Source: an uncultured Collinsella sp. (lineage in GTDB: Bacteria > Actinomycetota > Coriobacteriia > Coriobacteriales > Coriobacteriaceae). Taken from it: 64,000 nt of DNA. The stretch covers positions 35,392 to 99,391 of the forward strand of contig CAJLDK010000001.1 in NCBI GenBank assembly GCA_905205405.1, written 5' to 3'. The position numbers were made by a program, and so were the translations under genes. Shown here in pieces: positions 4,784-61,557 of the stretch. The notes beneath the pieces were generated by a model. It was not told where the DNA came from. It ran no database searches and saw only the letters and a program-made list of their open reading frames with translations. Every line of letters begins with the position of its first letter. The stretch's first letter is position 1.

Positions 4784-5746
4784 TTATCCTTTCTTAGCAA
4801 GATAAACAGCTTTGTAAACAGGCCTCGCAAAACAATATGTAATAGCCTGTATTTTTTTGAAGCCAGGAATATCCTCATTCCGGATAACGCTTCCGAGAAA
4901 ACGTTTTGGCTCCTTTAGAACAACATTTGCGATTTCATTCGGCATTTCGAGGTCTCTTACGGCAAACGCATTGTAAACAGCGACCTGAGAAAAAAAGCAC
5001 GAAGTCTCAGCGACATTAATCAAAGCAGGCACATGCCTGCGGATATATTCGAGCTGTTCATGGGATGCCTCGATTGGAAACACGTTAACACTAGAACTTC
5101 TCGATATACTTCCTTCTCTATGCCGATAGTAATATAACGGCCTATCCTCATAATAAGAACAATTTGATCTTAAAATTAAGCGATAGCACATGAATTGATC
5201 TTCGGAGTTCTTGCCTTCCGGAAACGCCAGGCCTTTAAATAAGCTGGCAAGAAATAACTTTCCGTTCATTGACATATCAAAGGAACGGTACGAGTTTAGA
5301 GCTCGAGCAGCCTCAATCGGCCCAAGGCGTTTACTTGTAAAAGCCGGACGAATTTCATGGCTAGACTGTCCACCGCAATCGATATATCGCCCAGAAATGG
5401 AAATATCGGCATTAAACTCATTGGCATTTGAATACATAACAGATAAATAGTCGGAATCAATGTAGTCATCTGAATCAACAAAAGCGATATACATACCATT
5501 CGCCGCAGCAACTCCAGTATTGCGCGCGCCAGCAAGACCCCTATTCGCTTGGTCAATAATCCGAATACGCGAATCCTTTTTCGCATAATCAGCAAGAATC
5601 CCTCGCGATCTGTCCGTAGAACCATCGTTCACCGCTATTACTTCAAAATCGGCATAGCTTTGCGCAAGAACACTATCTAAACAATCAGGCAAATAATCCT
5701 CAACATTATAGACAGGGATTATCAAACTTATATTAGGAGATCTCAT
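4784..5746 (-). CDS. Family 2 glycosyltransferase
   Basis: ISLIIPVYNVEDYLPDCLDSVLAQSYADFEVIAVNDGSTD...DSDD, the GT-A DxD signature. Confidence 0.85.
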   Translation of the reverse strand: MRSPNISLIIPVYNVEDYLPDCLDSVLAQSYADFEVIAVNDGSTDRSRGILADYAKKDSRIRIIDQANRGLAGARNTGVAAANGMYIAFVDSDDYIDSDYLSVMYSNANEFNADISISGRYIDCGGQSSHEIRPAFTSKRLGPIEAARALNSYRSFDMSMNGKLFLASLFKGLAFPEGKNSEDQFMCYRLILRSNCSYYEDRPLYYYRHREGSISRSSSVNVFPIEASHEQLEYIRRHVPALINVAETSCFFSQVAVYNAFAVRDLEMPNEIANVVLKEPKRFLGSVIRNEDIPGFKKIQAITYCFARPVYKAVYLAKKG

Positions 5747-6858
5747 AAGGAGCCTTTCATTAATATGGAGTGATATGGGACGACGTTATTGCCATTCCAC
5801 ATCCCGATTGTGATAGCGATATACACGATATATAGAACAACAATCACCAACTGAATCAGGAACTTCAATTTGATATTCGATATCGAGTCGATTGCCAGAG
5901 GCAAAAGAATTACAGAAGGCAGAGAAAAAACCCAGCGTAAACGCTGAGAAAGCGGAATCAGACCGGATAAGATTGCAATTGATGTCGCAACAAGCTGGCA
6001 CCAGAGAAGAATACGATAGCGTTCGGAATAAGCACCGCCATACAGCTTAGGTACAATCGCGGAAAATAATAGGACCACGACATTCAACGCGATAACGACA
6101 TTCCCGCTTTCGCCCGTATCAAAGATGGATCCGATATAGCCAGCGTATTGAGTTTTGGCAATGATGGTATTAACGAAAGATGCAATGGGGACCTTAAGAA
6201 GTAAAAATCCCGACACCAAAACCAAACAAATGCATGGAGTAATTTTAAGACGCGGAAAATAGTATGCAGCGATAAATACAAGCGAACTTGAGTGAAACGT
6301 GCTCGCTATCGCAACGCAGACCGCAAATTTTACCGGATCTCTCTCCTCTATATAACGAAGCGAAAACAACAAAATGGAAACCGCAAGCATCTGCCTCATG
6401 GCGTTCATGTAGATAAACAAATAAGACATCCCAAATAGGAGGAAGACGGATAATGCGGGATGAGAAGATTCACGCATAATGGCAGCATATGTCAACGCGA
6501 AAAATGCTACAGAACATACCAGGAATACGGGCAGAGGGTTATCTGTAAAACGAGCGACAAGGTAATTGAGGGCGTAATAGCCGATTTCCATTTCCTGGAA
6601 CCCCAAACCCGAACGCACACGATAGAAGTAAGGCACGTAAGTATAAAAATAATCTTGCCCAACACCATAACGAAAGCCAGTAAGAATAATGAAAACAAGT
6701 GCGGAGGCGACAACGCCCCAGCGCGAATAATCTCGTCCGTCGCGGGCAGAGATTGCAGACCGGGATGTCGCCGCCACTGAGTTCAAAGGTCTCTGAGCTA
6801 GTAGCATAAAACCAACCGCAAGCAGAAGGCTAATCCAGTATGGAGCCAATAGACTCAA
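5743..6858 (-). CDS. wzy: EpsG-family polysaccharide polymerase (Wzy-like)
   Basis: 371 aa polytopic membrane protein with an EpsG-like composition. TTG start at 6858, or alternatively Met at 6807. Overlaps the GT2 start by ATGA. Confidence 0.6.
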   Translation of the reverse strand: MSLLAPYWISLLLAVGFMLLAQRPLNSVAATSRSAISARDGRDYSRWGVVASALVFIILTGFRYGVGQDYFYTYVPYFYRVRSGLGFQEMEIGYYALNYLVARFTDNPLPVFLVCSVAFFALTYAAIMRESSHPALSVFLLFGMSYLFIYMNAMRQMLAVSILLFSLRYIEERDPVKFAVCVAIASTFHSSSLVFIAAYYFPRLKITPCICLVLVSGFLLLKVPIASFVNTIIAKTQYAGYIGSIFDTGESGNVVIALNVVVLLFSAIVPKLYGGAYSERYRILLWCQLVATSIAILSGLIPLSQRLRWVFSLPSVILLPLAIDSISNIKLKFLIQLVIVVLYIVYIAITIGMWNGNNVVPYHSILMKGSL

Positions 6859-7954
6859 ACCTCCCTGTAGCAGCAGCCAAATAAAAATCCGTCATCTTTT
6901 TCGTGTTATCCCTAAAATCAAAACCGTGAATAGCGGCGCAATCTGCATAGGCTCTACGATTGATGCACGATGATGCGCCAACGATTTGTTGTGCCCAGGC
7001 AACGGGCCCAGCATTCAAATCTAAAAACTCTGTAATATCAGAAATGACAACTTCTTTCGTAATCTCAGAGGAAAAATAGCTCGGTAAACCGCTGCATTGC
7101 GCCTCAATTCCCACCAAGGGAAGACCCTCGAACAGGGAGGGCAAAACAAATGCATCCATAGCTGAATAGTAGGCCTGGGGCTCATCAGTAACAGATTGGA
7201 AGATAACCTTGCCATTCAGCCCTTTACTAGAAACGAGATTTCGTATCGAGCCCTCAAGTTCGCCGGTACCCACCAGCAATAGACAGCTATCTGGTTTCAA
7301 CCGAACAATCTCTTCAAAAATCTCAATCAAAAACTGATGATTTTTCTGCAAATTAAAGCGACCCATATGACCAACCAACAATTGTCCCGGAACAATCCCC
7401 AAGCTGCGCCTAATACGATCGCGATCATCTTGATTAAATGAAAACCGCTCAGAATCAATTGCATTCTTAGCTAAATAGAATTGTCTATCGCCAAAAAGAT
7501 ATTTGCCCGCTTCTGTAGAACACGCAAGGCGAATATTCGCGTGAATTCCAGCAGTCTTAAAGAGCAGTTTTTTTGTATACCCCTTTGGTGTTCGAAGATA
7601 GGAAGCTCCGTGGCTATGTGCTATGCGGGCACGTACGCCAGCATTCTCGGCAGCAAACAGATAAAGACCCGCAAGACTCGCGGCATGGCCATGAACCACA
7701 TCCCATTTGTTTCCAGAGTACAACCTCTTTAGCTCGTGCCAATAAGAGATAACATTCTTATTATCCAAAACAGGCAAACGATAAATACGGCCTCCAAGCT
7801 CCTCTATCTCATCATCGAAGAACCCTCGTGAATTGTGATGGACTAGAAAGTCAAAATGCACAGTATCGCGATCAATAATTCGATACATATTCATGATGTA
7901 GTTTTCAATACCGCCAGAATTCATATCTGGAACAGCATGAAGGACTTTAATCAT
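6830..7954 (-). CDS. Family 4 glycosyltransferase (GT-B, GT1/GT4)
   Basis: MIKVLHAVPDMNSGGIENYI...EGLPLVGIEAQCSGLP. Start at 7954 with an AGGAGGAG SD. The ORF track extends the start to 7990. Confidence 0.85.
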   Translation of the reverse strand: MIKVLHAVPDMNSGGIENYIMNMYRIIDRDTVHFDFLVHHNSRGFFDDEIEELGGRIYRLPVLDNKNVISYWHELKRLYSGNKWDVVHGHAASLAGLYLFAAENAGVRARIAHSHGASYLRTPKGYTKKLLFKTAGIHANIRLACSTEAGKYLFGDRQFYLAKNAIDSERFSFNQDDRDRIRRSLGIVPGQLLVGHMGRFNLQKNHQFLIEIFEEIVRLKPDSCLLLVGTGELEGSIRNLVSSKGLNGKVIFQSVTDEPQAYYSAMDAFVLPSLFEGLPLVGIEAQCSGLPSYFSSEITKEVVISDITEFLDLNAGPVAWAQQIVGASSCINRRAYADCAAIHGFDFRDNTKKMTDFYLAAATGRFESIGSILD

Positions 7955-8777
7955 CGCTCCTCCTGAGCATATTCGTATATACAAACCCACGCAGGCAATT
8001 GGGCATCAGGCAAACAATCAGTTGGGGCAAAAAGGAAATCAGGAAATCTGCTACCGTAAAATAACCAATACGCAACTGAGCAGATTTGAACTTCCAAACA
8101 TGAGCCAAATAACCCAGGCCTCCGCGCCTCTCATAAAAATCAGGACTAACTCTCATGGCCACAAGCGTTTCGTGAAGATTCTCAGCTCGGCAACCAGCTG
8201 CAAGCATTCGATTAAATAAATCCCAATCTTCGAAATACAGATACTCGGAACTGTAATTGCCCGCTTTCAACACCTTTGATCGTTTGAATGTCATTGGCGG
8301 ATGACGAAATGGATTTCTACGCTTTGAACAAGCAATAATATTGTTGAGACCTTCGGGGAGATCCGTTCGTGCAATCGGCTTGTCAGGAGACTCGACGAAT
8401 TCAATTACTTGGCTCCCAACCATATCAAGACCATCTTGAATCGCCTTTAGTTGTTTCTCCATACGATCAGAACGTGCAATATCGTCTGTATCCATACGTG
8501 CAACAATATCGTTAGCACAAGCAAGCATTCCCCTGTGTAACGCATAGCCAAGACCGTGGTTTTCCTCGTAGGCAATAAAACTAAAGATGCCAGGATAACG
8601 GCGGTCATACTCAGCCAGAACTGAATCGAGTTCTTTTGTTAACGGTCCATCCTTAACCATAACGATTTCCGCTGGTGGAATCGTCTGGTTAATAATGCTG
8701 TCCAAAGAAGCACGAAGATACGCAGGGTTCTCCTTAAGATAAATGCTCATGAGAACGCTATAAGCCTGAGAAGCCAT
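7947..8777 (-). CDS. Family 2 glycosyltransferase
   Basis: VLMSIYLKENPAYLRASLDSIINQT...VKDGP...DTDD. Confidence 0.85.
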   Translation of the reverse strand: MASQAYSVLMSIYLKENPAYLRASLDSIINQTIPPAEIVMVKDGPLTKELDSVLAEYDRRYPGIFSFIAYEENHGLGYALHRGMLACANDIVARMDTDDIARSDRMEKQLKAIQDGLDMVGSQVIEFVESPDKPIARTDLPEGLNNIIACSKRRNPFRHPPMTFKRSKVLKAGNYSSEYLYFEDWDLFNRMLAAGCRAENLHETLVAMRVSPDFYERRGGLGYLAHVWKFKSAQLRIGYFTVADFLISFLPQLIVCLMPNCLRGFVYTNMLRRSDD

Positions 8778-9464
8778 TTATCGCCCCGTCCTCTTCTTGC
8801 CGAACATGGCACCGAAGGTGCCGGTGAAGCACTTCAGGTCCATGCATAAACAGCGATTACGTACGTAATGAAGCTCAATCTTCTGTCGCAAGCCGCTCTC
8901 AAATGTCGCGGCGTTACGATCGGTGGCCTGCCACAGGCCCGTGATGCCGGGCTGGACAGAGAGCAGCTCTGCCTTCTCCTCGTCGGAAAAGTGCTGCTCG
9001 AGCTCATCCCTTGTAATGGGACGAGGTCCAATGACGGAAAGGTCGCCGTTCAGCACGTTCAAGAACTGCGGCATCTCGTCGATTGAGCACTTACGGATGA
9101 ATTGGCCGACTTTGGTAATGCGGGGGTCATCGTCGACCTTACGCTCGACTTCCCACTGATGCAGTTGCTCAGGGCTCAGATACTTCTGCACGTTGCCGGC
9201 ATCGGCGACCATGCTGCGAAGCTTAAGGATCTTGATAGTCTTACCACCCTTGCCAATGCGCTCTTGTGCATACATAGGGCTACCGGACGATTCAAGCCTA
9301 ATGAGTGCACACACCGCAGCAACAGGAATTAGCAGCAGAACACTCATCAAAAGACTGAACACAAGGTCAAACAGCCTCTTAACAATGCGATACCCAAGCG
9401 TGCCGCTCGGCTTTATCTGATCGAAAAGCAGTGCGTCCCCCATAGATGCACGGCTCTCTGTCAT
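8778..9464 (-). CDS. Polyprenyl-phosphate sugar phosphotransferase (Bac_transf family, PglC/WcaJ-C-like priming glycosyltransferase). The start is uncertain: the ORF is open to a GTG at 9527.
   Basis: RLFDLVFSLLMSVLLLIPVAAVCALIRLESSGSPMYAQERIGKGGKTIKILKLRSM...VIGPRPI is the canonical sugar-transferase core. A G10 tract lies at 9512-9521, just 5' of or inside the N-terminus. Confidence 0.8.
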   Translation of the reverse strand: MTESRASMGDALLFDQIKPSGTLGYRIVKRLFDLVFSLLMSVLLLIPVAAVCALIRLESSGSPMYAQERIGKGGKTIKILKLRSMVADAGNVQKYLSPEQLHQWEVERKVDDDPRITKVGQFIRKCSIDEMPQFLNVLNGDLSVIGPRPITRDELEQHFSDEEKAELLSVQPGITGLWQATDRNAATFESGLRQKIELHYVRNRCLCMDLKCFTGTFGAMFGKKRTGR

Positions 9465-9511
9465 TTCTTTATTAGCAGTCACGATAAAACTTACGTCCCT
9501 GTCCCCAGGAA

Positions 9512-9521
9512 CCCCCCCCCC
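9512..9521. repeat. Homopolymeric tract: C10 on the plus strand, G10 on the coding strand
   Basis: Positions 9512-9521 are ten consecutive C. They encode GGG GGG GGG if translation starts at the GTG at 9527; otherwise they lie in the 5' leader. Confidence 0.9.
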
Positions 9522-9567
9522 ATCCACGAATTCAAAAAACGAATGAATTGCCGGTGCAACGTCTCCC

Positions 9568-10158
9568 TTACGTTTTGATGGGAACGTCGAGCGGAAGCAC
9601 TTCCCTAAAGCTGGAATCGCCTTCGCCTACGTCCACCAAGCACCAGCGTTTACGACGGTCGATCTTGTGCACACGGGCCTCTTGCCCCACCAAGGGCCCC
9701 TGTTCTATGTGCAGCACACCGTCTTCTATGCGCGCCACGCTGTTGCGCACCACGTCGTCGTCGTCGAGCACGCTGCGGTACCAGTCCTGTGCATCGTCCG
9801 GCATGGGCGCATAGGCCCGCTCCCTGCTGCCAGCAATGCGGCAGCCAAAACTCAACTGGGCCAAAGCCCTATCGAGCGCAGCGGCATCGTGCGTGGCGAC
9901 GAAGAAGTATTCCTTGTACATGGGTTTGGTTTGGAGCGACCATGCGCCGTCCCGCTTAAACCAGAACTCCTTTTGCATCACAAAAGCGTTCTGCATCAGC
10001 TCGTGTGGGATAATACGGCGCACCTTTTCGCAGGTCTCGCGCTCTTTTCCATGGGGGGTGTGGACCAGATACCAGCGGACGCGGCCGTGCTGGCTGTTGG
10101 TGGTAACGCCGTTAAATGCGCCCGGCAGCTGCTCTTGGCGCCGTGCCATCTGTTCCAT
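9568..10158 (-). CDS. NusG-paralog transcription antiterminator (UpxY/LoaP-like) heading the polysaccharide locus
   Basis: NGN-like N-terminus (VRWYLVHTPHGKERETCEKV) and a C-terminal KOW-like region (HIEQGPLVGQEARVHKID). ATG at 10158 with an AGAGGGGG SD. The ORF track extends it to 10275. Confidence 0.65.
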   Translation of the reverse strand: MEQMARRQEQLPGAFNGVTTNSQHGRVRWYLVHTPHGKERETCEKVRRIIPHELMQNAFVMQKEFWFKRDGAWSLQTKPMYKEYFFVATHDAAALDRALAQLSFGCRIAGSRERAYAPMPDDAQDWYRSVLDDDDVVRNSVARIEDGVLHIEQGPLVGQEARVHKIDRRKRWCLVDVGEGDSSFREVLPLDVPIKT

Positions 10159-12476: not shown

Positions 12477-12908
12477 TTACTGGATGCGAGTTCGGCAGTA
12501 GGGGCAGACCTTCCAGTGCGCATCGAGCGGACGATGGCAGCTGGGGCACACGTTGCGAACCTGAGTGTCGCACACGGGACAGACGACAAAGTCCTTCTCG
12601 ATGGGGGCGCCGCACTGCGGGCAGGTGCCGTACTGGGCAAGCTGGCGCTCGCGCAGGGCCATGTCCAGCTCCTGCTCCTCGCGGTCGGCAGCGTAGGAGT
12701 GCGGACGAAGGACCAGGTAGGCGATGAGGCCCACAAACGGGATCAGGGCGATGATGCCCCATGCCACGTAGGCGCTGGCGCCGCGGCGGCGAGCGTCGAT
12801 GAACACATAGACGACCGACAGCACGTACAGGGCGATGATAAAGCCCACGAAGGCATAGATGACGCCCATGAGCTGCGGCGACATGAGCTCGTTGATGTAT
12901 TTGGACAT
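12477..12908 (-). CDS. Membrane protein with a C-terminal double zinc-ribbon domain
   Basis: Two TM helices, then CPQCGAPI...CPVC...CPSCHRPL...CPYC. Confidence 0.7.
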   Translation of the reverse strand: MSKYINELMSPQLMGVIYAFVGFIIALYVLSVVYVFIDARRRGASAYVAWGIIALIPFVGLIAYLVLRPHSYAADREEQELDMALRERQLAQYGTCPQCGAPIEKDFVVCPVCDTQVRNVCPSCHRPLDAHWKVCPYCRTRIQ

Positions 12909-13007
12909 TGAGGTGTACCTTTCGGAATATTTACAGTCCGGTCAAGTTTACCACGGGGTTTGTTTATATGGGACCACGGCCGGGTACGGGGCTGGCGCGG
13001 ACACAAA

Positions 13008-13467
13008 CATCTCAATCTGTAACAGGTGGGAGCGGAATCCTGGTCTAGGTGTTACAGATCAAGACAAACGGATGATCCGCCAGACTAACGTCTCGATCTG
13101 TAACATCTGGAACCCAAATCATCAGCTAGCTGCTACAGATCAAGACGTAGAAAACCGTCCGAACCGAATGTCTCAATCTGTAACAGTTACCCGGCAAAAA
13201 CAGGTCTAACTGTTACAGATTGAGACATTCGAAACCGACTGATAGGTTCATCTCAATCTGTAAAATCTAGACCCCAAAACGGTCCCTAGATGTTACAGAT
13301 CGAGACAGAAAATCTCTCCCTGACTTTAAATCTCAATCTGTAACACATAGGACCGATTTTCCCCTCTTACTGTTACAGATCGAGACAAACAGAGGGCCCG
13401 CCTGGCAAACGTCTCGATCTGTAACATCTGGGACCCAACCCTTCTGCTTACTGTTACAGAACGAGAC
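13008..13467. repeat. Interspaced array of twelve 16-bp repeats in strictly alternating orientation (GTCTCRATCTGTAACA / TGTTACAGATYRAGAC) with 25-nt and 24-nt variable spacers. The period is 81 bp and there are 6 units.
   Basis: A-arms start at 13010, 13090, 13170, 13251, 13331 and 13411. B-arms start at 13050, 13131, 13211, 13291, 13371 and 13452. The arms are conserved, the spacers are divergent, and there are no cas genes. Confidence 0.9.
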
Positions 13468-13636
13468 AAAACTCTGACACCAGGGGCGGCAAACGAGTTT
13501 ATCGACGTTACCGAGTCTCCCCTCGCCTGCCGTTGGCGGGTGTTGCGGGGCTGTTCGCCGCATTGCCGCCGCGCTGGGGGCGTGCAGACCGTAGGATAGT
13601 CTTATTGACAGCCTGTCAACTTGTCTGGGAGGCACC

Positions 13637-15100
13637 GTGGCAGAAACGTTTGATATCGCGATTGTCGGCGCTGGCATCACCGGATGCGCCATCGCGCGGC
13701 AGCTCGCGCGCTATGACCTGTCTACTTGCGTGGTCGAGGCAGCAAACGATATCGCGCTGGGCGCATCGAAGGCCAACGGCGGCCTGGTGCACGCCGGCTA
13801 CGATCCGACACCGCGCACGGTTAAGGCCCAGGTCAACGCTCGTGGTTGCGAGCTGTACGGTACGTGGGCGCAGGAGCTGGGCTTTCTGTTCCGCCGCACC
13901 GGGTCGATGGTGCTGGGCTTTAACGACGAGGACCGCGCGCAGCTGGAGAAGCTGCGGTGCAACGGCCATGCCAACGGCCTGCCCGAGCTGTCAATCGTCG
14001 GACCCGACCGCATCCACGAATTAGAGCCGCGGGCCAGTGCCGAGGCGACGTGCGCGCTGTGGTGTCCCTCCACTGGCTTTGTGGATCCGTTTGAGGTCGC
14101 CATTGCCGCGCTGGAGAACGCCGTCGCCAACGGGGTGACGTTTATGCGCTCCGCACCGGTGGAAGCGATTGAGGTTGCTGGCAGCGAGGCTACCGACGGG
14201 GCTGCGCGCTTTACGCTGGCGACGCCCGCCGGAGACGTGCGCTGCCGCTATCTGATCAACGCCGCGGGCAACGGTGCCGCGGACATCTCGCATATGGTGG
14301 GCGCCGAGGAGTTCCAGATGGTCTGGCGTCAGGGCAACATCGTGGTGCTGGACAAGGAACCGCGCACGCTCATGCCGCTCTACCCGGTGCCGACGCCGAT
14401 TTCGAAGGGCGTTATTGTCACGGGCACCGTGCACGGCAACACAGTGATAACCGCCACGGCTGCCGTGCGCGAGCCGGGTGACACGCAGACCTATGCAAGC
14501 GATGTGAACGCGCTGCTGACCGGCGCGCGCAAGCTGGTGCCCGATCTGGACACGCGCCGCGTGGTGCGCGCATTTGCCGGCGGGCGTCCGGTCATTCAGG
14601 GAACGAACGACTTCTTTATTGGACAGTCGGCCGTGGTGCCGGGGCTGTTCCAGGCGGCTGGTATTCAGTCGCCGGGCGTGGCAAGCGCGCCGGCAATTGC
14701 CGAGCGCATGGAGCTTGTGATGCGCGAGTCGGGCGTGAAGATGCACGAGCGGGCGGAATGGAACCCAATTCGCCGCGCGCCGGACGACTTTGACCGCGCA
14801 CCGCTGGCGCGCAAGGAGGAGCTCATTGAGTCCGACCCCGCGTGGGGCCAGATTGTTTGCCGCTGCGAGACGGTGCCCGAGGCCGAGATCGTGGCCGCGA
14901 TTCGGCGCCGCCCGGGAGCAGTTTCGGTCGAGGGCGTCAAGCGCCGCTGCCGCGCCGGCATGGGTCGCTGTCAGAGCGGCTTTTGCCAGAGCCGTGTGGT
15001 GGCGATTCTTGCCCGAGAGCTGGACTGCGACCCCAGCGAGGTATTACTGGAGGACGCCGGCTCCTGGCTGGTCGAGGGGCCTTTGAAGGGGGTGCGCTAG
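13637..15100 (+). CDS. FAD-dependent glycerol-3-phosphate dehydrogenase-like oxidoreductase (GlpA family) with a C-terminal BFD-like [2Fe-2S] domain
   Basis: GTG start. N-terminal dinucleotide fold FDIAIVGAGITGCAIA. C-terminal CRCETVPEAEIVAAIRR...CRAGMGRCQSGFCQ. Confidence 0.8.
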   Translation: MAETFDIAIVGAGITGCAIARQLARYDLSTCVVEAANDIALGASKANGGLVHAGYDPTPRTVKAQVNARGCELYGTWAQELGFLFRRTGSMVLGFNDEDRAQLEKLRCNGHANGLPELSIVGPDRIHELEPRASAEATCALWCPSTGFVDPFEVAIAALENAVANGVTFMRSAPVEAIEVAGSEATDGAARFTLATPAGDVRCRYLINAAGNGAADISHMVGAEEFQMVWRQGNIVVLDKEPRTLMPLYPVPTPISKGVIVTGTVHGNTVITATAAVREPGDTQTYASDVNALLTGARKLVPDLDTRRVVRAFAGGRPVIQGTNDFFIGQSAVVPGLFQAAGIQSPGVASAPAIAERMELVMRESGVKMHERAEWNPIRRAPDDFDRAPLARKEELIESDPAWGQIVCRCETVPEAEIVAAIRRRPGAVSVEGVKRRCRAGMGRCQSGFCQSRVVAILARELDCDPSEVLLEDAGSWLVEGPLKGVR

Positions 15101-16901: not shown

Positions 16902-17309
16902 AATTTGGGACGGGGCTCTTTTAGCTACCCCGCCATCCACCCCGCCCCTCCTCAATTGCGGTGAAATAGTTCCTGATTTCCGCCAAAACCCCGGCATCCA
17001 GGAACTATTCCACCGCAACTTGCCTTGGGATCGATATTTAGATTGTGCCTACTTTAGTGCCATTTCAAAACTATGCCGGATTACGGGGCTGATTCGGAGA
17101 CCCCCATCCATACCGGCATTTTTCGATTTTTGATAAGCCGTCTACCTGCGGTTTTAATTTCGCAATTTTTCCAATGGTCAAGTAATACAGGTCCAGCCCC
17201 GTAATCCGCCATAGTTTTGAAAGCAGCTAATTCGGGACGACCCTCTTATGACTACTTTTACCTATCATTCCGCATGTTTGACACAGCTAAAATAGCCCCG
17301 TCCCAAATT
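16902..17309. mobile_element. MITE-like non-coding element (~408 bp) bounded by 24-bp terminal inverted repeats (AATTTGGGACGGGGCTCTTTTAGC) and containing nested internal inverted repeats
   Basis: Left TIR at 16902-16925; right TIR at 17286-17309 (23 of 24 match). Internal IR 17060-17095 versus 17195-17230. The core TACCTGCGGTTTTAATTTCGCAATT (17143-17167) recurs at 18578-18603. Confidence 0.6.
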
Positions 17310-18720: not shown

Positions 18721-18800
18721 GTTGCGGTGATATACGGACCGTTTGAGGCTTCTGGCTTGTAAAACAGTCCGTATTTCACCGCAACTGATGAGGGGATGGG

Positions 18801-27157: not shown

Positions 27158-27221
27158 GTTGCGGTGGAATAGGGACTGTTTGGGGCTCCAGTCCTCCAAA
27201 ACAGTCCCTATTCCACCGCAA
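27158..27221. repeat. Hairpin repeat of the GTTGCGGTGRAATA family. Copy 3 of 3 in the window; the others are at 16956-17018 and 18721-18785.
   Basis: Arms GTTGCGGTGGAATAGGGACTGTTT and AAACAGTCCCTATTCCACCGCAAC. Confidence 0.6.
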
Positions 27222-32927: not shown

Positions 32928-33024
32928 TGGCGGGAACGTATGTGAATCGAACACATCCAAGACGTTTTGCACGCCTCACAACGGTTTTGAGGACCGCGGG
33001 GCCCACCGGAGCCCATCCGTTCCC
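32928..33024 (-). tRNA. selC: tRNA-Sec (selC): anticodon TCA, 8-bp acceptor stem, long variable arm
   Basis: GGGAACGGATGGGCTCCGGTGGGCCCCGCGGTCCTCAAAACCGTTGTGAGGCGTGCAAAACGTCTTGGATGTGTTCGATTCACATACGTTCCCGCCA, immediately upstream of selB. Confidence 0.8.
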
Positions 33025-61185: not shown

Positions 61186-61557
61186 AAGAAAGCTGAGTGG
61201 GCCTGTAAGCCGGGTTCTGTCGTGAACGGTCATTTATCTTGTCTGCACGTTACCGTGCAGCTCCACGCACGCTACCCGAACGCGGACCGGGCCGGCCCAT
61301 AGCGTTCCTATTCGCGCTTGCTCCGGATGGGGCTTGCCAAGCCGCCGTGTTGCCACGACGCTGGTGGTCTCTTACACCACCGTTTCAGCTTTTCCCTTTA
61401 CGCCTTGCGACGCAGGTGGGAGTCTTCTTTTCTGCGGCGCTTTCCGTCGGATCACTCCGCCCGGCCGTTAGCCGGCATCCCGCCCTCTGGAGCCCGGACT
61501 TTCCTCACGCGTACCGCAAGCAGTACATCGCGCGACCGTCTGGCCCACTCAGCAGTG
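61186..61557 (-). ncRNA. rnpB: RNase P RNA (bacterial type A), ends approximate
   Basis: Minus strand contains GAGGAAAGTCCGGGCTCCA (P4 5' strand) and ACAGAACCCGGCTTACAG (P4 3' strand). P1 pairing GCTGAGTGGGCC/GGCCCACTCAGC. Confidence 0.85.

What the first reader, a model, noticed from the sequence alone, without database searches (positions are those of the whole stretch)
13008..13467. 81-bp-periodic array of twelve conserved 16-bp repeats in strictly alternating orientation with unique 24/25-nt spacers: CRISPR-like geometry, but not a CRISPR
- **Layout.** Six units of [GTCTCRATCTGTAACA]-25 nt-[TGTTACAGATYRAGAC]-24 nt repeat with an exact 80-81 bp period, with arm starts at 13010/13050, 13090/13131, 13170/13211, 13251/13291, 13331/13371 and 13411/13452. 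The 16-bp arms are almost invariant.
- **Spacers.** The intervening 25-nt loops and 24-nt linkers are all different and only faintly related (loops 2, 4 and 6 share TCTRGACCCAA).
- **Conservation pattern.** Arms conserved while spacers diverge argues for sequence-specific recognition (protein binding sites) rather than stems maintained by compensatory changes, and for selection on the arms after old tandem duplication.
- **Possible structures and site.** Each adjacent arm pair can form a 16-bp stem with a ~25-nt loop in either register. Each arm contains the near-palindrome CTGTWACAG.
- **Context.** The array lies in the 730-bp divergent region between a membrane protein with a zinc ribbon and a glpA-like oxidoreductase operon, with no cas, par or recombinase genes nearby.
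- **Candidate roles.** A centromere/partition-like or nucleoprotein-scaffold site array, a multi-operator regulatory array, or a multi-hairpin structured RNA. I know of no described family with this exact architecture.
Basis: seen in the sequence. Interest (0 to 1): 0.85.

Follow-up and report, generated by a model that had tools for sequence, protein, structure and literature searches.

The report
BIME-like inverted-repeat array in Collinsella
The array is real, but it is one copy of a repeat family scattered through intergenic regions of Collinsella gut bacteria, built much like the BIME/REP arrays of E. coli, and is not a CRISPR-like or glycerol-specific device.

Summary
Twelve copies of RTCTYRATCTGTAACA lie at 13009-13467 in strictly alternating orientation. 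They form six modules: arm, 25 nt, inverted arm, then a 23-24 nt linker.

The locus is not unique. The same modules occur as arrays of 1-8 units in roughly 35-45 different intergenic contexts across Collinsella genomes. They sit next to unrelated housekeeping genes, in divergent, convergent and tandem settings. At this locus, related strains carry between 2 and 8 units.

The "spacers" are not unique acquired sequences:
- They recur across strains with point changes.
- Their length is fixed: the segment between the inverted arms is 25 nt in 401 of 405 units.
- They share a composition pattern.

The two arms of a unit vary independently, with no compensatory changes. At orthologous loci the arms diverge 2-4 times more slowly than flanks, loops or linkers.

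Best reading: a BIME/REPIN-cluster-like dispersed repeat whose arms are sequence-specific double-stranded DNA sites for an unidentified protein. Arrays grow and shrink by recombination, and this one is a passenger between two promoters.

No RAYT transposase, cas or Tas gene, or Rfam family is associated. I rate it a new variant of a known kind, of moderate interest.

The parts
13009..13467 (.). Whole array: six 80-81-bp modules holding 12 arms in alternating orientation
13009..13065 (.). Palindromic unit 1. Forward arm ATCTCAATCTGTAACA (13009-13024), 25-nt loop, reverse arm TGTTACAGATCAAGAC (13050-13065).
   Evidence: The same unit is kept as the first unit in most related strains.
13066..13089 (.). 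Linker 1, 24 nt (AAAC...TAAC). A/T-rich ends and a G/C-rich centre.
13090..13146 (.). Palindromic unit 2. Forward arm GTCTCGATCTGTAACA (13090-13105), 25-nt loop, reverse arm TGCTACAGATCAAGAC (13131-13146).
13147..13169 (.). Linker 2, 23 nt
13170..13226 (.). Palindromic unit 3. Forward arm GTCTCAATCTGTAACA (13170-13185), 25-nt loop, reverse arm TGTTACAGATTGAGAC (13211-13226). The two arms are perfectly complementary.
13227..13249 (.). Linker 3, 23 nt
13250..13306 (.). Palindromic unit 4. Forward arm ATCTCAATCTGTAAAA (13250-13265), 25-nt loop TCTAGACCCCAAAACGGTCCCTAGA, reverse arm TGTTACAGATCGAGAC (13291-13306).
13307..13329 (.). Linker 4, 23 nt
13330..13386 (.). Palindromic unit 5. Forward arm ATCTCAATCTGTAACA (13330-13345), 25-nt loop, reverse arm TGTTACAGATCGAGAC (13371-13386).
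13387..13410 (.). Linker 5, 24 nt
13411..13467 (.). Palindromic unit 6. Forward arm GTCTCGATCTGTAACA (13411-13426), 25-nt loop, reverse arm TGTTACAGAACGAGAC (13452-13467). This is the terminal unit and is kept in most related strains.
12909..13008 (-). About 100 bp of flank of constant length between the array and the start of the zinc-ribbon (DZR) membrane-protein gene (12477-12908, minus strand). Presumed promoter and leader of that gene; not part of the repeat.
   Evidence: The distance is 101 bp by my measure in all ten syntenic loci. Pfam result.
13468..13636 (+). About 170 bp of flank of constant length between the array and the GTG start of the GlpA-like gene (13637-15100, plus strand). 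It contains the palindrome TTGACAGCCTGTCAA at 13605-13619. Presumed promoter and operator of that operon; not part of the repeat.
   Evidence: The distance is 170 bp in nearly all syntenic loci. Sequence.

Best explanation
The array is one member of a repeat family that is dispersed through intergenic regions across the genus Collinsella (Coriobacteriia). Its architecture matches BIME-2 and REPIN-cluster elements.

The repeated module is about 81 bp:
- two inverted copies of a 16-bp motif, RTCTYRATCTGTAACA;
- exactly 25 bp between them, following the pattern NN-TAG-(G/C-rich)-WWW-(G/C-rich)-CTA-NN;
- a 23-24-bp linker with A/T-rich ends and a G/C-rich centre.

Shown:
- The family is dispersed, intergenic, and independent of neighbouring gene function and orientation.
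- Copy number at a given locus varies between strains.
- The arms are conserved as sequence, with no compensatory pairing.
- Spacing is strict.

Inferred:
- Each inverted arm pair is a double-stranded DNA site for an unidentified sequence-specific protein that binds as a dimer or higher oligomer. This would explain why the 25-bp spacing never drifts and why the module period is nearly constant.
- Arrays expand and contract by unequal recombination or slippage between the near-identical arms.
- At this locus the array sits in the dispensable middle between two divergent promoters, leaving constant flanks of about 100 bp and 170 bp. It is not a dedicated regulator of the glpA-like operon or of the DZR/thrS genes.

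Not resolved: whether the family is purely selfish (a non-autonomous element served by a transposase or nuclease in trans) or has a host role such as nucleoid organisation, as proposed for E. coli BIMEs.
For: Dispersal:
- The arrays contain only whole arm-loop-arm units, 1-8 per array.
- Contexts: 47 divergent, 39 convergent, 46 tandem.
- There are about 45 groups defined by flanking genes. Some are variants of one locus, so I estimate 35-45 distinct loci.
- The flanking genes are unrelated housekeeping genes: NRAMP transporter, gltB, a LacI-type regulator, DXS, prfC, glycogen phosphorylase and others.
- A 900-kb C. aerofaciens record holds 20 matching places. One 24-kb stretch of it holds four arrays, all between RefSeq-annotated genes.
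- Arrays lie a median of 57 bp from 3' gene ends and 139 bp from 5' gene ends.

Dynamics:
- At this same locus, strains with an identical DZR protein carry between 2 and 8 units. The end units are kept and the internal units differ.

Constraint:
- The loop is 25 nt in 401 of 405 units. Linkers are 23 nt (152) or 24 nt (98), with 22 nt in 7 and 33-35 nt in 3.
- Divergence between orthologous loci is 0.048 for arms, 0.106 for flanks, 0.154 for loops and 0.212 for linkers.
- 135 distinct loop types still share the TAG...WWW...CTA pattern. Linkers share a W-S-W composition.

No pairing selection:
- At the variable arm positions, observed pair counts match independence. For example, pair (5,61) gives G-C 154, G-T 148, A-T 36 and A-C 34, against expected 152, 150, 34.6 and 35.
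- On 135 units, 74.8% of cells are paired against 77.3% in shuffles. The covariation score is 0.142 against 0.166, and all 500 shuffles were at least as high.

No Rfam family matches.

Architectural precedent: BIMEs have regularly spaced REPs in alternating orientation, bind gyrase and IHF, and are length-polymorphic. E. coli REP325 is built of six repeats of 77 bp.
Against: - No binding protein has been identified, and there is no experimental evidence of binding.
- The ten innermost arm positions are nearly invariant, so they cannot covary. An RNA or single-stranded DNA hairpin recognised for both sequence and shape is therefore not strictly excluded.
- Mismatches between arms are strongly polar within arrays (0 G.T against 9 A.C on the plus strand here). 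This could hint at a strand-specific function. It does not follow gene direction and tends to follow local GC skew (21 of 30 locus groups), which fits mutation bias plus inheritance of an asymmetric founder unit.
- Free variation in unit number argues against strong selection on any single arm. Concerted evolution could therefore contribute to arm conservation.
- Genome-wide copy number is extrapolated, not counted.
Confidence: 0.6

Rival explanations
1. Hairpin-based element. The units act as RNA hairpins (transcript stabilisers, terminators or processed small RNAs), or as single-stranded DNA hairpins handled by an HUH/RAYT-type enzyme, as in classical REP/REPIN systems.
For: - Each unit can fold into a 16-bp stem. 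The 511-nt region folds far better than shuffles (z = -14 on the plus strand, -12.5 on the minus strand).
- Arm mismatches are mostly transitions (587 against 133 other mismatches) and are polar within arrays, so one strand keeps G.U/G.T wobble pairs.
- Some arrays lie inside apparent operons, 27 bp upstream of a start codon, and so must be transcribed.
- E. coli REP325 is transcribed.
Against: - There is no compensatory change at any variable arm position, and pairing is no better than in shuffles.
- The loop interior is mostly unpaired, about 30%.
- Array polarity does not follow the direction of neighbouring genes.
- 47 arrays lie between divergent genes, where no read-through transcript is expected.
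- No RAYT homologue was found in about 1.2 Mb of DNA around arrays.
- No Rfam family matches.
- A 25-nt central spacer makes cruciform extrusion from duplex DNA unlikely (general knowledge).
Confidence: 0.13
2. Functionless satellite. The arrays are decaying tandem duplications or MITE-like relics. The arms stay alike through concerted evolution (gene conversion, and birth and death of units by arm-to-arm recombination) rather than through protein binding.
For: - Unit number varies freely between strains.
- Loops and linkers diverge faster than the flanks, which suggests unit turnover.
- Arrays occupy only permissive intergenic positions.
- Mismatch polarity tracks GC skew, as expected from mutation bias.
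Against: - Within a single array, loops and linkers differ by about 25-50% while the arms stay at least about 90% identical.
- A 16-bp stretch is short for homologous conversion.
- Loop length is fixed at 25 nt in 401 of 405 units despite heavy substitution. A shared TAG/WWW/CTA and W-S-W composition pattern is also kept. This needs constraint beyond homogenisation of the arms.
Confidence: 0.15
3. Locus-specific device. The array is a multi-operator array controlling the glpA-like operon and/or the DZR-thrS genes, or a centromere or partition site.
For: - It lies in a divergent promoter region.
- Some plasmid centromeres, such as F sopC, are tandem arrays of short inverted-repeat sites (my own knowledge).
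Against: - The same modules lie next to dozens of unrelated genes, including 39 sites between convergent 3' ends.
- Unit number at this locus ranges from 2 to 8 in close relatives, while the flanks of about 100 and 170 bp that must hold the promoters stay constant.
- No par genes are nearby.
- A separate 15-bp palindrome next to the glpA-like start codon is a better operator candidate.
Confidence: 0.03
4. Guide-RNA array. The array is a CRISPR-like or TIGR-like store of acquired spacers.
For: Regular interspacing of conserved repeats with variable segments of fixed length.
Against: - The repeats are inverted copies, not direct repeats.
- The variable segments are related by descent. They recur across strains with point changes and share a composition pattern.
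- The arrays lie at dozens of loci without cas or Tas genes.
- TIGR arrays have two distinct 8-12-nt repeats, 9-nt spacers and 36-nt units, and lie next to Nop-domain genes.
Confidence: 0.01

Closest known systems
E. coli BIME-2 / atypical BIMEs (for example REP325: six repeats of 77 bp, each with Y and Z2 palindromic units, joined by short spacers)
   Same: - Dispersed and strictly extragenic.
- Regularly spaced short conserved units in alternating orientation, separated by two alternating kinds of short inter-unit segment.
- Modules of about 80 bp repeated head to tail, up to about 12 units.
- Strong length polymorphism between strains.
- Species- or genus-specific sequence.
(searches compared)
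   Different: - In BIMEs each REP/PU is itself an imperfect palindrome kept by complementary mutations. Here the 16-mer is not self-complementary; only the inverted pair is palindromic, and no compensatory change is seen.
- No RAYT was found.
- The host is an actinobacterium, not a proteobacterium.
- The inter-arm segments vary in sequence but are rigidly fixed in length.
REPIN clusters with RAYT (Pseudomonas and others)
   Same: The basic unit is a doublet of two inverted short repeats around a spacer. Doublets occur singly or in tandem clusters, are inherited vertically and persist across species (abstracts).
   Different: - REPINs are thought to work as single-stranded hairpins served by a single-copy Y1 transposase that is itself flanked by REPs.
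- Here there is no hairpin covariation.
- No Y1 transposase appears among the recurrent flanking genes or in about 1.2 Mb of DNA around arrays.
MIRU-type minisatellites of Mycobacterium (my own knowledge)
   Same: An actinobacterial family of 40-100-bp units, tandemly repeated at a few dozen intergenic loci, with copy number varying between strains.
   Different: MIRUs are direct repeats without an internal inverted pair. They are oriented with the flanking operon and often carry short coupled reading frames.
MITEs (terminal inverted repeats bound by a transposase supplied in trans)
   Same: Two independently conserved inverted termini recognised as sequence would explain the lack of covariation. 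They are also intergenic and dispersed.
   Different: - The unit is only 57 bp.
- No consistent target-site duplication is seen.
- The interior is hypervariable but fixed in length.
- The whole 81-bp module, linker included, is what gets tandemly repeated.
- No parent transposon was found.
CRISPR and TIGR arrays
   Same: Conserved short repeats regularly interspaced with variable segments of fixed length.
   Different: Inverted rather than direct repeats; variable segments related by descent; dozens of loci; no cas or Tas genes; unit sizes do not fit.

Membership tests
REP/BIME (as defined by Nunvar 2010) | Extragenic location | tested here: met
   All arrays lie between genes in my gene calls and in the RefSeq annotation of C. 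aerofaciens.
REP/BIME | High abundance (more than 100 copies per genome) and dispersal | tested here: inconclusive
A 900-kb record holds 20 places, and one 24-kb stretch holds four arrays. This extrapolates to roughly 50 arrays, or a few hundred arms, per genome. No complete genome could be counted.
REP/BIME | Regularly spaced units in alternating orientation, in head-to-tail modules | tested here: met
   Strict +-+- order in nearly all arrays, with loops of 25 nt and linkers of 23/24 nt.
REP/BIME | Each repeat unit is itself an imperfect palindrome able to form a stem-loop | tested here: not met
   The 16-mer GTCTCGATCTGTAACA has no usable self-complementarity: only GATC and TGT-A-ACA (read directly from the sequence). 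Palindromy exists only at the level of the arm pair.
REP/BIME | Palindromy maintained by complementary (compensatory) mutations | tested here: not met
   Arm pairs vary independently. Pairing and covariation do not exceed the shuffled controls.
REP/BIME and REPIN | A cognate RAYT (Y1 transposase) gene flanked by the repeats | tested here: not met
   phmmer with E. coli RayT found nothing (E <= 10) among 8087 ORFs from about 1.2 Mb of array-bearing Collinsella DNA. The recurrent flanking genes are housekeeping genes. Caveat: whole genomes were not searched.
REP/BIME | Length polymorphism between strains | tested here: met
   Between 2 and 8 units at this locus in strains sharing an identical DZR protein.
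REP/BIME | Binding of gyrase, IHF, HU or Pol I | not testable with these tools
   Needs biochemistry or ChIP.
CRISPR | Direct repeats of about 23-50 nt | tested here: not met
   The conserved unit is 16 nt and successive copies are inverted.
CRISPR | Unique spacers acquired from foreign DNA | tested here: not met
   Loops and linkers recur across strains with point substitutions and share composition patterns. The array region has no match in the phage collection.
CRISPR | Associated cas genes | tested here: not met
   The neighbours are thrS, the DZR gene, the glpA-like operon, a peptidase and a Mur ligase. The dozens of other loci are also next to housekeeping genes.
TIGR-Tas | Two distinct alternating 8-12-nt repeats, 9-nt spacers, 36-nt units, and an adjacent Nop-domain Tas gene | tested here: not met
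   Definition. Here there is one 16-nt motif in inverted copies, 25/24-nt variable segments, an 81-nt unit and no Nop-domain gene nearby.
Structured RNA family (Rfam) | Match to a curated model, or covariation supporting a fold | tested here: not met
   No gathering-score hit. Only sub-threshold generic miRNA-hairpin matches. No covariation.
Partition centromere (sopC / parC / parS type) | A single or few loci linked to par genes | tested here: not met
   Dozens of chromosomal loci and no par genes adjacent.
MITE | Terminal inverted repeats plus a target-site duplication and a related autonomous transposon | tested here: inconclusive
   Inverted termini are present. No consistent direct duplication flanks the units. 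No parent element was seen in the fetched loci. The whole genome was not examined.

The most novel reading that the evidence does not exclude
The family could be a REP/BIME-like system that does not depend on a RAYT transposase. In this reading the arm pairs are double-stranded DNA sites for a dedicated Collinsella-specific protein.

The only candidate seen is an orphan 356-aa protein with a weakly supported PD-(D/E)XK nuclease-like C-terminal domain. In nine species its gene is bracketed by arrays about 27 bp upstream and 15 bp downstream, much as the E. coli rayT gene is bracketed by BIME-2.

Such a protein would either mobilise and remodel the arrays, or assemble on them into regularly phased nucleoprotein structures that organise the chromosome.
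Probability: 0.12. Interest if true: 0.7.

Novelty: new variant of a known kind. Interest (0 to 1): 0.4.

Why it matters
Collinsella is a common human gut genus. I found no description of this repeat family in the searchable literature.

If the reading is right:
- BIME/REPIN-type architecture, known mostly from Proteobacteria, extends to Coriobacteriia.
- This version differs in an informative way: no unit-level palindrome, no hairpin covariation, no RAYT, and rigid spacing. That pattern points to a different recognition mechanism based on double-stranded DNA.

Practical consequences:
- The arrays vary in length between strains and could serve as strain-typing markers.
- They can mislead assemblers and finders of CRISPR arrays or structured RNAs.
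- At least once they served as an integration site for a mobile island.

For the glpA-like operon itself, the array is probably irrelevant.

Tried and rejected
- Rfam at gathering and at permissive thresholds gave only generic miRNA-hairpin noise.
- Tandem Repeats Finder does not report the array, because the loops and linkers are too diverged.
- CRISPR and TIGR readings were rejected on architecture and context.
- A glp-specific operator or a centromere was rejected because the family is dispersed.
- Weak 3-mismatch matches to the arm at 2179-2291 are chance hits in an unrelated low-GC coding stretch.
- A literature search for the arm sequence found only primers and one M. tuberculosis CRP-site example (TGTGATCTGTAACACC). 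That site shares a half-site at best and is not a match.
- Searches for Collinsella together with REP or inverted repeats found nothing relevant.
- RAYT search: no homologue in the DNA around arrays.
- The orphan 356-aa protein bracketed by arrays has no Pfam, NCBIfam, PADLOC or PDB sequence hit.
  - Its AlphaFold model is poor (pLDDT 59.7).
  - Foldseek hits are all non-significant, although they are dominated by PD-(D/E)XK nucleases. It remains a lead only.
- G.T/A.C polarity as evidence for a transcribed strand was rejected. It does not follow gene direction and tends to follow local GC skew.
- Viral-contig hits are Collinsella-like in GC content (0.61-0.64) and probably represent host DNA. 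The two low-GC hits lack the full arm.
- Counting arrays over the whole 900-kb C. aerofaciens record was not completed. Only 74 kb was fetched: the first 50 kb has no array, and a 24-kb stretch has four.
Full report
**Observation.** The region 13009-13467 holds twelve copies of a 16-bp motif with consensus RTCTYRATCTGTAACA, on strictly alternating strands. A 15-mer search found all twelve at 0-2 mismatches. Only 1.26 matches per window are expected by chance even at 3 mismatches. Forward arms start at 13009, 13090, 13170, 13250, 13330 and 13411. Reverse arms start at 13050, 13131, 13211, 13291, 13371 and 13452. All loops are 25 nt and the linkers are 24/23/23/23/24 nt. The array is about 20 points lower in GC than its surroundings. 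It lies in the 728-bp gap between a minus-strand zinc-ribbon (DZR) membrane-protein gene, with thrS behind it, and a plus-strand DAO/Fer2_BFD, Pyr_redox_2 and DUF1667 operon of the anaerobic GlpA type. Conservation also extends from each arm into the loop (NN-TAG on one side, CTA-NN on the other). This fixes the functional register as arm-loop-arm, with the linkers lying between units.

**The locus is not unique.** The organism is a Collinsella of the aerofaciens group.
Almost all were Collinsella, often with several contigs per genome and several arrays per 8-kb stretch.
- In these loci the arms always form whole arm-loop-arm units, arranged in arrays of 1 to 8 units. The six-unit array here is among the longest.
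- Arrays lie between divergent (47), convergent (39) and tandem (46) gene pairs.
- Clustering the flanking proteins gives about 45 flank combinations, which I estimate as 35-45 distinct loci.
- The flanking genes are ordinary and unrelated: an NRAMP transporter, gltB, LacI- and GntR-type regulators, DXS, CoaX, prfC, glycogen phosphorylase, a copper ATPase and others.
- A 900-kb C. aerofaciens record holds 20 matching places. It is labelled a plasmid but is evidently chromosomal. A 24-kb piece of it has four arrays, each between RefSeq-annotated genes.
- Arrays sit close to stop codons (median 57 bp) but leave room upstream of start codons (median 139 bp). This is the pattern expected for an element tolerated only where it does no harm.

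**Behaviour at this locus.** Ten contigs that encode the identical DZR protein carry between 2 and 8 units at the same place.
- The first and last units are usually retained, and the internal units differ.
- About 100 bp next to the DZR gene and 170 bp next to the glpA-like gene are always preserved.
- In two genomes an island carrying a tyrosine-integrase gene sits inside one reverse arm. In another, an IS1595-type element and a relB gene lie beside the array.

**The "spacers".** They are not unique acquired sequences.
- The same loop and linker types recur across strains with point substitutions.
- Across the family I found 135 loop types that differ at more than 5 of 25 positions. All follow the pattern NN-TAG-(G/C-rich x5)-N-WWW-N-(G/C-rich x4)-N-CTA-NN.
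- Linkers have A/T-rich ends and a G/C-rich centre.
- Length is rigid. The loop is 25 nt in 401 of 405 units. Linkers are 23 nt (152) or 24 nt (98), with 22 nt in 7 and 33-35 nt in 3.

**Structure or sequence?** The region folds far better than shuffled sequence, as any set of inverted repeats would. The two arms of a unit nevertheless vary independently.
- At the variable positions the observed pair counts equal the product of the marginals. Compensated pairs are not enriched and mismatches are not depleted.
- On 135 diverse units, 74.8% of cells are paired against 77.3% in shuffles, and the covariation score is 0.142 against 0.166. All 500 shuffles reached the observed value.
- The loop interior is mostly unpaired.
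- Between orthologous loci the arms diverge by 0.048, against 0.106 for non-repeat flanks, 0.154 for loops and 0.212 for linkers.
- Within this one array, loops and linkers differ by about a quarter to a half while the arms stay nearly identical.

So the motif is constrained as sequence, and the distance between the two copies is constrained too, but their complementarity is not. This is the signature of a protein recognising two inverted sites at fixed spacing on duplex DNA. It is not the signature of a hairpin kept by compensation. Because the ten inner arm positions are almost invariant, a hairpin recognised by both sequence and shape cannot be formally excluded.

**Mismatch polarity.** Arm mismatches are strongly polar within arrays. 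Here there are 0 G.T and 9 A.C on the plus strand, so the minus strand would keep wobble pairs. I tested whether this marks a transcribed strand. The polarity does not follow the direction of neighbouring genes. It tends to put G.T on the locally G-rich strand in 21 of 30 locus groups (p = 0.04). Mutation bias, together with inheritance of an asymmetric founder unit through tandem duplication, is a sufficient explanation.

**Comparison with known systems.** The closest match is the BIME/REP world.
- BIMEs are defined by regularly spaced REPs in alternating orientation. They are extragenic, abundant, species-specific, highly length-polymorphic, and bound by gyrase and IHF.
- E. coli REP325 consists of six repeats of 77 bp, each with two palindromic units, joined by short spacers. 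That is nearly the geometry seen here.
- REPIN clusters, which are tandem inverted doublets, are equally close.
- Three defining features fail. The 16-mer is not itself a palindrome. There are no complementary mutations. No RAYT was found, either among the recurrent flanking genes or by phmmer in about 1.2 Mb of array-bearing DNA.

I therefore say that the array looks like a BIME, and probably behaves like one as a dispersed protein-binding repeat. I do not file it as a REP/RAYT member. CRISPR and TIGR are excluded on repeat orientation, spacer relatedness, unit size and absence of effector genes. No Rfam family matches. A dedicated glp operator or a centromere is contradicted by the dispersal.

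**A lead on the partner protein.** An orphan 356-aa protein restricted to Collinsella is tightly bracketed by arrays in nine species, about 27 bp upstream and 15 bp downstream. This recalls the way the E. coli rayT gene is bracketed by BIME-2. The protein has no Pfam, NCBIfam, PADLOC or PDB sequence match. Its model is of low confidence. The Foldseek hits are non-significant, although most are PD-(D/E)XK nucleases. Other genes, such as the NRAMP transporter and an AAA ATPase, are also flanked by two arrays. This is a hypothesis to test, not a finding.

**Verdict.** The array is, however, one instance of a genus-wide BIME-like repeat family and not a singular device. I found no prior description of the family in the searchable literature. 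I class it as a new variant of a known kind, with moderate interest (0.4).

Noticed in passing
window 16956-17018, 18722-18784, 27159-27221; also 23 of the fetched Collinsella loci: A second dispersed palindromic family, TTGCGGTGRAATAG-N35-CTATTYCACCGCAA (63-bp hairpins), lies just downstream of genes or between convergent genes. There are 8 arm hits in the window against 0.59 expected. The inner stem differs between copies but stays complementary, so this family does look like a classical REP or terminator hairpin.
   Followed up: partly
L007 about 5050-9602 and L078 about 7740 onward (the syntenic locus in other strains): An island of about 4.5 kb (HTH regulator, RhuM-like protein, tyrosine integrase) is inserted inside a reverse arm of the array. 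The junctions share the core GTGGCAG, which resembles the arm's GTTACAG. The array has therefore served as an integration site.
   Followed up: partly
L002 7562-8861: In one strain, an IS1595-type transposase gene and a relB gene lie between the array and a truncated glpA-like gene (397 aa instead of 487). Two IS110 copies lie nearby.
   Followed up: no
L023 5028-6092, L051 4941-6008, L113 3804-4865, L145 17918-18994 (and 5 more loci): A Collinsella-restricted orphan gene of 356-358 aa is bracketed by arrays within about 10-30 bp on both sides in nine species. Weak fold hints point to a PD-(D/E)XK nuclease. A paralogue with 34% identity lies 1-2 kb from another array.
   Followed up: partly
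window 13605-13619: The perfect 15-bp palindrome TTGACAGCCTGTCAA ends 17 nt before the GTG start of the glpA-like gene. It is conserved in another strain and is a more plausible operator for this operon than the array.
   Followed up: no
all arrays (loci L001-L130): Arm-pair mismatches are strongly polar within an array. The G.T side tends to lie on the locally G-rich strand (21 of 30 locus groups, p = 0.04). This suggests replication- or transcription-linked mutation bias acting on the palindromes.
   Followed up: yes
NZ_OY725717.1 (L144, L145): This 900-kb 'plasmid 6' of C. aerofaciens in the plasmid collection carries recA, lexA, ftsK, scpAB, der, gltB and similar genes. It is evidently a piece of chromosome, not a plasmid.
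   Followed up: no
window 32932-33024 and 61190-61551: The window also holds a selenocysteine tRNA gene and the RNase P RNA gene, both on the minus strand. They are unrelated to the array.
   Followed up: no
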